A DNA stretch of 64,000 bases from NCBI RefSeq assembly GCF_009914755.1, contig NC_060925.1, one strand, 5' to 3'. The notes beneath the pieces are model-generated. The model made no database searches and was not told the origin of the DNA. It saw only the letters and a program-made list of their open reading frames with translations. The position numbers and the translations under genes are program-made. Within the stretch, counting starts at the first letter, position 1. Every line of letters begins with the position of its first letter. Shown in pieces: positions 24,826 through 32,035 of this stretch. Origin of the DNA: the human T2T-CHM13v2.0 reference genome, Homo sapiens.

Positions 24826-25010
24826 TTTTTATTGGTATACAATAGTTGTACATATTTTGAGTACATGTGATATTTGATACCAGTATACTATATGTAATGA
24901 TCAGATCAGGGTAACTGGTGTATCCATCACCTCTAACATTAATCATTTCTTTGCACTGGAAACATTACACTTGTTCTATTCTATTTTGACATATACAGTC
25001 AGTTATTATT
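24826..25010 (-). mobile_element. L1MA-type 3'UTR fragment, left half (resumes at 31912-32032)
   Basis: ...tattttgacatatacagtcagttattatt continues as attattaactataatttccttattgtactatcc. Confidence 0.8.
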
Positions 25011-25740
25011 TTTTTTTGAATTTTTAAATTATTTTAATGATATAAATATAACATCAGCACCTAATCCTGGTAATGGTAGCACAAAAAAGAAAAGTATAGA
25101 GCAATATCATTTATGACAATTGATGCAAAAATCTGAAATACAATTTAGAAATAGATTCCCAAGCAACATTCAAAAAAAACACCACACCATGACTTGATAT
25201 TTATACGAAGAATGCAAGAACCTGTTAGCATTCTGTTAGGAAACCTACTATTAGAGTGCACAATACTAATAGGAGTAAGAAAAAAAATCACACGGTTACC
25301 TCCACAGATGCTTAAAAAGCCTTTGAAAAAATTCAACTTACGTCCTACTAAAAAAAAGAAAATTGCAATGAATTGGTTCTTAACATGTGGAAATAAACAC
25401 TCTCATACAATGCTTGTGGGAATAAAAAATGACACAATTCCATGTACCTACAAGACATCCCAGCCATTCCACTCCTAGTTATTCAAGAGACTTGAATAAC
25501 TCTGTATTAGGCCTTTTTTGCATTACTATAAGGGAATATCTGAGACTGGGTAATTTATAAAGAAAAGAGGTTTAATTGGCTTATGGTTCTGCAGGCTGTA
25601 TAAACGTGGCACCAACATCTGCTCAGCTCCTGATGAGGGCCTCAGAAAGTTCACAGTCATGGCAGAAGGTGAAGGGGAGCCAGCATGTCACATGGTGAGA
25701 GCAAGAGCAAGAGAGTGAGAATGGGGAGGTCCCAGATTCT
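25011..25740 (-). other. 3'-transduced segment carried by L1-B
   Basis: Lies between the L1 tail and a second A-tail (T run to 25017); ATTAAA at 25033-25038 (minus); inside the outer TSD; contains old L1 pieces and half an MST LTR. Confidence 0.82.
25504..25740. mobile_element. MST (MaLR) LTR, one half only
   Basis: tgtattaggcc...gagactgggtaatttataaagaaaagaggtttaattggct; compare the complete MST at 37178-37586. Confidence 0.88.
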
Positions 25741-25972
25741 TTTTTATTTTTTTTAATTTTATTATTATTATACTTTAAGTTTTAGGGTACATGTGCACAA
25801 CGTGCAGGTTTGTTACATATGTATACTTGTGCCATGTGGGTGTGCCGCACCCATTAACTTGTCATTTAGCATTAGGTGTATCTCCTAATGCTATTCCCTC
25901 CCCCCTCCCCCCACCCCACGACAGGCCCCAGTGTGTGATGTTCCCCTTCCTGTGTCCATGTGTTCTCATTGT

Positions 25973-29794: not shown

Positions 29795-29857
29795 TATGAT
29801 GTTAGCTGGTTATTTTGTTAATTAGTTGATGCAATTTCTTCCTAGCCTTGACGGTCT

Positions 29858-30867
29858 TTACAATTTGGCATGTTTTTGCAGTGGCTGGTACCAGTGGTTC
29901 CTTTCCATGTTTAGTGCTTCCTTCAGGAGCTCTTCTAGGGCAGGCCTGGTGGTGACAAAATCTCTCAGCATTTGCTTGTCTGTAACATATTTTATTTCTC
30001 CTTCACTGATGAAGCTTAGTTTGGCTGGATATGAAATTCTGGGTTGAAAATTCTTTTCTTTAAGAATGTTGAATATTGCTCCCCACTCTCTTCTGGCTTG
30101 TAGAGTTTCTGCCGAGAGATCAGCTGTTAGTCTGATGGGCTTCCCTTCGTGGGTAACCCAGCCTTTCTCTCTGGCTACCCTTAACATTTTTTCCTTCATT
30201 TCCACTTTGGTGAATCTGATAGTTATGTGTCTTGGAGTTGCTCTTCTCGAGGAGTATCTTTGTGGCGTTCTCTGTATTTCCTGAATTTGAGTGTTGGCCT
30301 GCCTTGCTAGATTGGGGAAGTTCTCCTGGATAATATCCTGCAGAGTGTTTTCCAACTTGATTCCATTCTCCCCATCACTTTCAGGTACACCAATCAGATG
30401 TAGATTTGGTCTTTTCACATAGTCCCATATTTCTTGGAGGCTTTGTTTCTTGTCATTCTTTTTTCTCTAAACTTCTCTTCTCCCTTCATTTCATTCCTTT
30501 CGTCTTCCATCACTATACCCTTTCTTCCAGTTGATCGCTCGGCTACTGAGGCTTCTGCATTCGTCACTTAGCTCTCGTGCCTTGGTTTTCAGCTCCATGA
30601 GGTCCTTTAAGGACTTCTCTGCACTGGTTATTCTAGTTATCCATTCATCTAATTTTTTTTAAAGCTTTTAACTTCTTTGCCATTGGTTTGAATTTCCTCC
30701 TGTAGCTCGGAGTAGTTTGATCGTCTGAAGCCTTCTTCTCTCAACTCGTCAAAGTCATTCTCCATCCAGCTTTGTTCCATTGCTGGTGAGGAGCTGTGTT
30801 CCTTTGGAGGAGGAGAGGTGCTCTGATTTTTAGAGTTTCCAGTTTTTCTGCTCTGTTTTTCTCCCAT
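29858..30867 (-). pseudogene. L1-B ORF1, disrupted
   Basis: MGEKQSRKTGNSKNQ... breaks near 30650; C-terminal half open 29858-30418. Confidence 0.93.
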
Positions 30868-32035
30868 CTTTGTGGTTTTATCTACCTTTGGTCTTTGATG
30901 ATGGTGATGTACAGATGGGTTTTTGGTACAGATGTGCTTTCTGTTTGTTAGTTTTCCTTCTAGCAGACAGGACCCTGAGCTGCAGGTCTGTTGGAGTTTG
31001 CTAGAGGTCCACTCCAGACCCTGTTTGCCTGGGTATCAGCAGCGGTGGCTGCAGAACAGAGTATACTGGTGAACTGCAAATGCTGTTGCCTGATCGTTCC
31101 TCTGGAAGTTTTGTCTCAGAGGAGTACCCGGACATGTGAGGTGTCAGTCCGCCCCTGCTGGGGGGTGCCTCCCAGTTAGGCTTCTCGGGGGTCAGGGACC
31201 CACTTAATGAGGCAGTCTGCCCGCTCTCAGATCTCAAGCTGCGTGCTGGGAGAACCACTACTCTCTTCAAAGCTGTGAGAGAGGGACATTTAAGTCTGCA
31301 GAGGTTAGTGCTGTCTTTTCGTTTGTCTGTGCCCTGCCCCCAGAGGTGGAGCCTACAGAGGCAGACCTGCCTCCTTGAGCTGTGGTGGGCTCCACCCAGT
31401 TTGAGCTTCCTGGCCGCTTTGTTTACCTAATCAAACAACTAACTCGGCAGTGGCGGGCGCCCCTCCCCCAGCCTCTCTGCCACCTTGCAGTTTGATCTCG
31501 GACTGCTGTGCTAGAAATGAGTGAGACTCCATGGGCATAGGACCCTCCAAGGCAGGTGCAGGATATAATCTCCTCGTGTGCCGTTTTTTAAGCCCGTTGG
31601 AAAAGCACAGTATTAGGGTGGGAGTGACCCGATTTTCCAGGTGCCGTCTGTCACCCCTTTCTTTGACTAGGAAAGGGAATTCCCTGACCCCTTGCACTTC
31701 CCGGGTGAGGTGATGCCTCACCCTGCTTCGGCTCGTGCACGGTGCGCTCCACCCACTGTCCTGCACCTACTGTCTGGCACTCCCCAGTGAGATGAACCCA
31801 GTACCTCAGTTGGAAATGCAGAAATCACCTGTTTTCTGCGTCGCTCACGCTGGGAGCTGTAGACCAGAGCTGTTCCTATTCGACCATCTTGGCTCCTCCC
31901 CCCGAGGTCCCCAGTCTGTGATTATTAACTATAATTTCCTTATTGTACTATCCAATATTAGAACATGTTCCTTCAATCTATAATAGGTGTATTTTTGTAC
32001 CGTTCAACCAACTTCTCCTTATCCCTCCACCCAGT

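What the first reader, a model, noticed from the sequence alone, without database searches (positions are those of the whole stretch)
24996..31926. L1-B is a daughter element with a ~720-bp 3' transduction
Seen: no full TSD directly flanks the L1 body. Instead a 15-bp near-repeat, cagtcagttattatt (24996-25010) / cagtctgtgattatt (31912-31926; 13/15 match), brackets the L1 plus 25011-25740. Removing the whole block rejoins one L1MA 3'UTR fragment. The extra segment ends with ATTAAA about 15 nt before a second A-tail and holds only half of an MST LTR. Known: L1 read-through moves 3' flanking DNA. Inference: 25018-25740 was imported from another locus and tags the source element.
Basis: partly seen in the sequence, partly recalled or inferred. 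Interest (0 to 1): 0.75.

Follow-up and report, generated by a model that had tools for sequence, protein, structure and literature searches.

The report
Jumping gene copy outlived its parent
This old LINE-1 jumping-gene copy carries 724 bases of DNA that match one other spot in the genome, where no such LINE-1 sits today, so it is likely the surviving offspring of a parent copy that was lost; it is a clean example of a process that is already well known.

Summary
Confirmed, with additions. Window 25019-25741 has one close paralogue, G000:C4:143759672-143760398 (20 differences in 723 columns); the next hits are 80-86% repeat-family copies. The match starts at a TT|AAGA site inside a whole 414-nt LTR and ends 15 nt after an ATTAAA. 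No young L1 sits there, so the transduction is 'parentless'. Removing the block and one 15-bp TSD rejoins the old L1 3'UTR with no gap in 4 of 5 intact copies. That is a short 5' transduction from the parent's own TSD and places the parent at the C4 site. The L1 keeps the 5'UTR segment later lost in L1PA3, so it likely dates from the ape or great-ape stem. No siblings were found. The parent most likely never fixed and was lost by drift; exact excision cannot be excluded without ape genomes. Double and parentless transductions are both published, so this is a new member of a known kind.

The parts
24826..25010 (-). Left part of the old L1 3'UTR fragment (L1MA-like, label recalled) that was the insertion target
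   Evidence: 77-84% to many genomic copies, no close paralogue among 40 scored; continues at 31927 with gap 0 in 4 of 5 copies
24996..25010 (+). Left target-site duplication; the empty site reads TATT|AA, an L1-endonuclease-like nick site
25011..25017 (-). Remnant of the second poly(A) tail, not present at the donor locus
   Evidence: C4 continues with other sequence after this point
25018..25741 (-). 3' transduction: DNA copied from G000:C4:143759671-143760398 (half an LTR plus very old L1 fragments)
   Evidence: 97%, 20 substitutions in 723 columns, 3 gap events; the non-LTR part alone also has one close hit
25033..25038 (-). ATTAAA poly(A) signal used by the read-through transcript; an earlier ATTAAA at 25571-25576 was skipped
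   Evidence: hexamers at +166 and +709 from the donor site; a T-rich stretch follows the cut point on C4
25503..25741 (+). 239 of 414 nt of an MST-like solo LTR (label recalled); whole and uninterrupted on C4
25726..25741 (-). Inferred 3' TSD of the parent element (16 nt), starting at the TT|AAGA site of the C4 LTR
   Evidence: homology to C4 begins exactly here
25742..31903 (-). Full-length primate L1 with first A-tail; both ORFs broken; pre-deletion type (L1PA4 or early L1PA3)
   Evidence: ORF pieces; ORF1 ATG at 30868; 3 nonsense changes and 2 frameshifts in 886 ORF2 codons
30998..31125 (-). 128-nt 5'UTR segment that the window's other L1 lacks; matches in size the 129-bp ZNF93-site deletion
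   Evidence: PMC7110667 passages
31883..31883 (-). T where 21 of 21 other L1 5' ends have C, inside the YY1-site stretch (site position recalled)
   Evidence: recurrent in unrelated copies
31904..31911 (-). 8-nt 5' transduction: last 8 nt of the parent's 5' TSD
   Evidence: identical to 25726-25733; this junction is unique in the genome at 0-1 mismatches; chance about 2e-4
31912..31926 (+). Right target-site duplication
31927..32035 (-). Right part of the old L1 3'UTR fragment

Best explanation
The block is one L1 insertion that carries DNA from a locus on contig C4 at both ends, and its parent L1, now absent from that locus, was likely lost by drift without ever fixing. Shown: the single donor locus, the exact boundaries, the empty whole LTR, the TSD, the second tail and the 8-nt 5' tag. 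Inferred steps: (1) an L1PA4-like element inserted at TT|AAGA in the C4 LTR and made a 16-nt TSD; (2) its transcript started about 8 nt upstream, inside the 5' TSD, read through its own weak signal and one ATTAAA, and was cut after the second ATTAAA at +709; (3) the full-length RNA was reverse-transcribed into TATT|AA in an old L1 3'UTR here, giving a 15-bp TSD, probably in the ape or great-ape stem; (4) the daughter fixed while the parent allele was lost from the line leading to this genome.
For: One close paralogue among 40 scored of 5,546 candidates, and again for the non-LTR part (40 of 172 scored). Homology starts at the nick-like site and stops at the poly(A) site. The C4 LTR aligns across the site to 15 of 16 other copies, with no L1 remnant and no second TSD. 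No L1 above 80% identity in the 28 kb held around the site. The old L1 fragment continues colinearly past the cut point on C4 (score 253 vs shuffle maximum 236 against L1-B; 219 vs 209 against L030) but not on chr1 (151-161), which gives the direction. The 7 LTR differences split about 4:3 between the two copies. Parentless sources are the common case in dogs (PMC7980453, PMC13141329) and apes (PMC4862182). Exact deletion was put at 0.003% per lineage for whale SINEs, slightly higher than in primates (PMC10531181).
Against: Loss by drift and exact excision leave the same empty site; nothing in one genome separates them. The deletion rate cited is for SINEs, not 6-kb L1s. The TSD has 2 mismatches in 15. 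The continuation test was not above shuffles for 2 of 4 subjects (L029 and the L012 copy). The transduced DNA looks younger than the L1's 5' half: 15 non-CpG differences against 29.7 expected, P=0.002; with the ORF2 rate the gap shrinks to 15 against 21.4, P=0.095.
Confidence: 0.8

Rival explanations
1. Same transduction, but the parent was fixed and was later removed exactly by recombination between its two 16-nt TSDs, in the human line or only in some human haplotypes.
For: Such a deletion leaves one TSD copy in a whole LTR, as seen. The low divergence of the transduced DNA fits a parent that lasted a while. The site lies between two genes, where removal could be favoured.
Against: Exact deletions are very rare (PMC10531181 passages). 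No scar: the short A-run at the C4 site has the same spacing as in 4 of 15 other LTR copies.
Confidence: 0.08
2. The chr1 copy is a granddaughter: an intermediate element carried both tags and was itself lost.
For: It would also explain a younger-looking or older-looking tag; one genome cannot exclude it.
Against: No second tail or extra TSD inside the block. No other copy of either junction or of the segment was found. It needs two losses.
Confidence: 0.04
3. The parent was already old or dead and its RNA was mobilised late, possibly in trans by another L1's proteins.
For: Dating gap with the 5'UTR/ORF1 reference, P=0.002. Private ORF2 changes show no purifying selection (33 nonsynonymous, 6 synonymous).
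Against: The gap is not significant with the ORF2 rate (P=0.095). Neutral private changes are also what decay after insertion gives. The 5' half reference mixes sub-lineages.
Confidence: 0.06
4. No transduction: the C4 segment arrived by DNA-level duplication or as an orphan copy, the L1 inserted into it afterwards, and a deletion trimmed the far side.
For: The L1 sits between two copies of LTR sequence, as an insertion into an LTR would.
Against: The deletion would have to stop exactly at the outer TSD and leave only 8 of 16 nt. The segment ends at a poly(A) signal with an untemplated tail, and one TSD brackets everything.
Confidence: 0.02

Closest known systems
L1 3' transduction (described in PMC6425141, PMC7980453; T2T catalogue of 183 high-confidence L1 3' events in bioRxiv 10.1101/2021.07.12.451456)
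   Same: Read-through to a downstream poly(A) signal, two A-tails, one TSD around element plus flank, a single donor locus.
   Different: Old (ape-stem type) and fully decayed. Whether this event is in that catalogue's table could not be seen, as bioRxiv supplements are closed.
'Parentless' transductions (dog: 17 of 18 in PMC7980453, 24 of 27 in PMC13141329; ape and macaque source loci without full-length donors in PMC4862182)
   Same: The donor locus holds the transduced DNA but no L1.
   Different: Those are recent, still dimorphic insertions whose parent may segregate today; here the two copies differ by 2.8%, so the parent is likely long gone.
L1s with both 5' and 3' transductions (PMC6425141: 10-nt and 18-nt 5' pieces, ascribed to initiation upstream of +1)
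   Same: A short 5' piece matching the bases directly upstream of the donor, plus a 3' piece after an internal A-tail.
   Different: There the donors are present and were sequenced; here the 8-nt piece is the only evidence of where the parent stood.

Membership tests
L1 3' transduction | One TSD brackets the L1 and the extra DNA | tested here: met
   13/15 at 24996 and 31912; gap-0 rejoin in 4 of 5 copies
L1 3' transduction | Second, untemplated A-tail after a poly(A) signal in the extra DNA | tested here: met
   ATTAAA 15 nt before the tail; tail absent from C4
L1 3' transduction | Endonuclease-like target site | tested here: met
   TATT|AA here, TT|AAGA at the donor; the consensus motif is recalled
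L1 3' transduction | The extra DNA maps to one other locus, where it sits in its native context | tested here: met
L1 3' transduction | Outgroup species lack the block at the target | not testable with these tools
   no relatives are held for this genome
Parent-present transduction family | A full-length L1 directly upstream of the donor sequence | tested here: not met
   empty site; nearest L1 pieces are 66-80% identical and 3.6 kb or more away, apart from the old fragment inside the segment. It is filed as parentless instead.
Short L1 5' transduction | Bases between TSD and L1 +1 match the bases upstream of the donor element | tested here: met
   8/8 to the inferred parent TSD in the daughter, 7/8 to C4 today; the donor element itself cannot be read
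L1PA4 / early L1PA3 | Retains the 129-bp 5'UTR segment | tested here: met
   128 nt extra against the window's other L1; PMC7110667
L1PA4 / early L1PA3 | Best match to the subfamily model in a repeat library | not testable with these tools
   no Dfam or RepeatMasker library; the 3'UTR differs from five younger copies at positions I recall as L1PA4-type

The most novel reading that the evidence does not exclude
The parent was a fixed, long-lived source L1 between two testis-type genes, escaped normal start-site control through a YY1-site change, and was later cut out exactly through its own TSDs; this chr1 copy would be its only record and would prove a traceless loss of a 6-kb element in ape evolution.
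Probability: 0.06. Interest if true: 0.6.

Novelty: new member of a known kind. Interest (0 to 1): 0.32.

Why it matters
It reconstructs the position, orientation, TSD, start site and subfamily of an L1 that this genome no longer holds. It gives a precise locus to look up in ape assemblies as a lineage-sorting marker or, less likely, a case of exact excision. It shows that double tags can map extinct source elements. It does not change what is known about the mechanism, and no effect on a gene is shown.

Tried and rejected
Siblings: the 5' junction pattern gave 3 hits, only the window's own carrying the tag. The 3' junction pattern gave 18 hits; of the 10 fetched, 1 was the window, 1 was C4, 7 were plain LTRs and 1 (L022) had Alu tails at 76% identity; 8 were not read. 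Inherited YY1-site variant: 11 other carriers exist; 10 were compared properly (L074 picked up another element and was dropped), and all were 4.9-7.4% from L1-B against 3.9-5.0% for 19 ordinary relatives, so the variant recurs and marks no family. Gene conversion with the window's other L1: longest identical run 137 nt against 131-207 for four others; rejected. The G shared by both 8-mers as a haplotype tag: it is the common state in 12 of 16 other LTRs; rejected. An uninserted paralogue of the chr1 target: none above 84% among 40 scored. I first misread the columns as showing a 76-80% L1 across the C4 breakpoint; that L1 lies 3.6 kb further on, and the direction test was redone. Szak 2003, van de Lagemaat 2005, Lavie 2004, Jacobs 2014, Pickeral 2000 and the journal version of the T2T repeat paper were not held, so I saw nothing of their text.

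Full report
Observation. A full-length primate L1 lies on the minus strand at 25742-31903. The best repeat bracketing it is the 15-mer at 24996-25010 / 31912-31926 (13/15), which also encloses 25011-25741. Only 21 of 56,886 other window 15-mers match the left junction that well. Five uninterrupted copies of the flanking old L1 3'UTR were aligned to both flanks: in 4 of 5 the right flank starts on the base after the left flank ends, once one TSD copy is removed; the fifth has its own deletion. The empty site reads TATT|AA.

Donor locus. A search of the window's own genome with 25018-25740 gave itself, one 97% full-length hit at G000:C4:143759672-143760398, and then only 80-86% hits to the LTR part (40 scored of 5,546 candidates). 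The non-LTR part alone gave the same single hit (40 of 172 scored). The alignment has 20 substitutions in 723 columns and 3 gap events. It begins exactly at TT|AAGA inside the C4 LTR and ends about 15 nt after ATTAAA. An earlier ATTAAA at +166 was skipped, and a T-rich stretch follows the cut point on C4. The C4 LTR is 414 nt and aligns across the site to 15 of 16 other copies with no L1 remnant and no second TSD. In the 28 kb held around the site there is no L1 above 80% identity to L1-B. For direction, the very old L1 fragment in the segment continues colinearly beyond the cut point on C4. It scored above all 30 shuffles for 2 of 4 subjects and not for the other 2; chr1 beyond its junction scored 151-161, below the shuffle means.

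The 5' tag. Between the L1's first base and the right TSD lie 8 nt that are identical to 25726-25733, the last 8 of the 16 nt behind the L1's first A-tail. The simplest reading is that the parent stood on C4 between two copies of a 16-nt TSD and that its transcript began about 8 nt upstream. The chance of such a match is about 2e-4, and the junction occurs once in the genome at 0-1 mismatches. This argues against an L1 inserting later into an orphan copy, which would have left the whole 16 nt and upstream LTR. PMC6425141 (passages) reports 10-nt and 18-nt 5' transductions together with 3' ones and ascribes them to upstream initiation. L1-B has a T at 31883 where 21 of 21 other 5' ends have C, in the stretch I recall as the YY1 site; YY1 helps set the start site (PMC10879037 passages). 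Eleven other copies carry the same change, and the 10 compared are not close relatives, so inheritance from the parent is not shown.

Age. L1-B keeps a 128-nt 5'UTR segment (30998-31125) that the window's other L1 lacks. PMC7110667 (passages) places the 129-bp deletion in L1PA3 of the great-ape ancestor, so this is an L1PA4 or early L1PA3 type; the L1PA4 call from the 3'UTR is recalled. Private non-CpG changes in 886 ORF2 codons are 39 in 2,588 sites (1.5%), with no sign of selection. The two copies of the transduced DNA differ by 2.8% overall and 2.1% outside CpG, close to the human-orangutan distance as I recall it. Against 19 relatives over the first 2.5 kb the tag looks half as old as expected (15 vs 29.7, P=0.002); against the ORF2 rate it does not differ significantly (15 vs 21.4, P=0.095). 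I leave this open. The likely window is the ape to great-ape stem.

Fate of the parent. One genome cannot tell loss of an unfixed allele from exact excision. Priors favour loss: donor sites were empty for 17 of 18 dog transductions (PMC7980453 passages) and 24 of 27 in a later set (PMC13141329 passages), and full-length donors were almost never seen in ape and macaque references (PMC4862182 passages). Exact deletion was put at 0.003% per lineage in whales, slightly higher than in primates (PMC10531181 passages). No sibling or intermediate was found; these searches score only the best candidates, so this is a lower bound. The C4 site lies between calreticulin-family exons (143713677-143725855, CpG island near 143746500-143747500) and MGAT4-family exons (143771172-143794678). 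I recall these as the testis-expressed CLGN and MGAT4D; no call names them.

Known or new. The T2T repeat preprint (passages) lists 183 high-confidence L1 3' transductions; its table is in a closed supplement and may hold this event. Szak 2003 and the other older papers were not held. A search for CLGN, MGAT4D and LINE-1 together found 0 papers; (listings and abstract starts) showed nothing on this locus. That is weak evidence of absence from print. Interest 0.32.

Noticed in passing
window 5037-11082 (-): A second near-full-length L1, of younger type (lacks the 128-nt segment). It was the top hit for L1-B's 3' 3 kb among 40 scored, but shows no conversion tract.
   Followed up: partly
L022 (G000:C2:3270461): Alu-like tails sit at the homologous nick site of another copy of the same LTR family, so this LTR position has been targeted more than once.
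   Followed up: partly
G000:C4:143713677-143794678: The donor site lies about 12 kb from a CpG island on the side of a calreticulin-family gene and about 11 kb from MGAT4-family exons; the parent would have pointed away from the first and against the second.
   Followed up: partly
window 31912-31926: Both TSD mismatches likely lie in the right copy, next to the L1 5' end, judged by four other copies of the old 3'UTR (4 of 4 and 3 of 4).
   Followed up: no
L074 (G000:C23:55927478-55930501): The locus seems to hold two L1 5' ends within 3 kb.
   Followed up: no
L012 about 4000-8174 and L013 83-1994: Older L1 pieces (66-80% to L1-B) near the donor site, not part of the event.
   Followed up: partly
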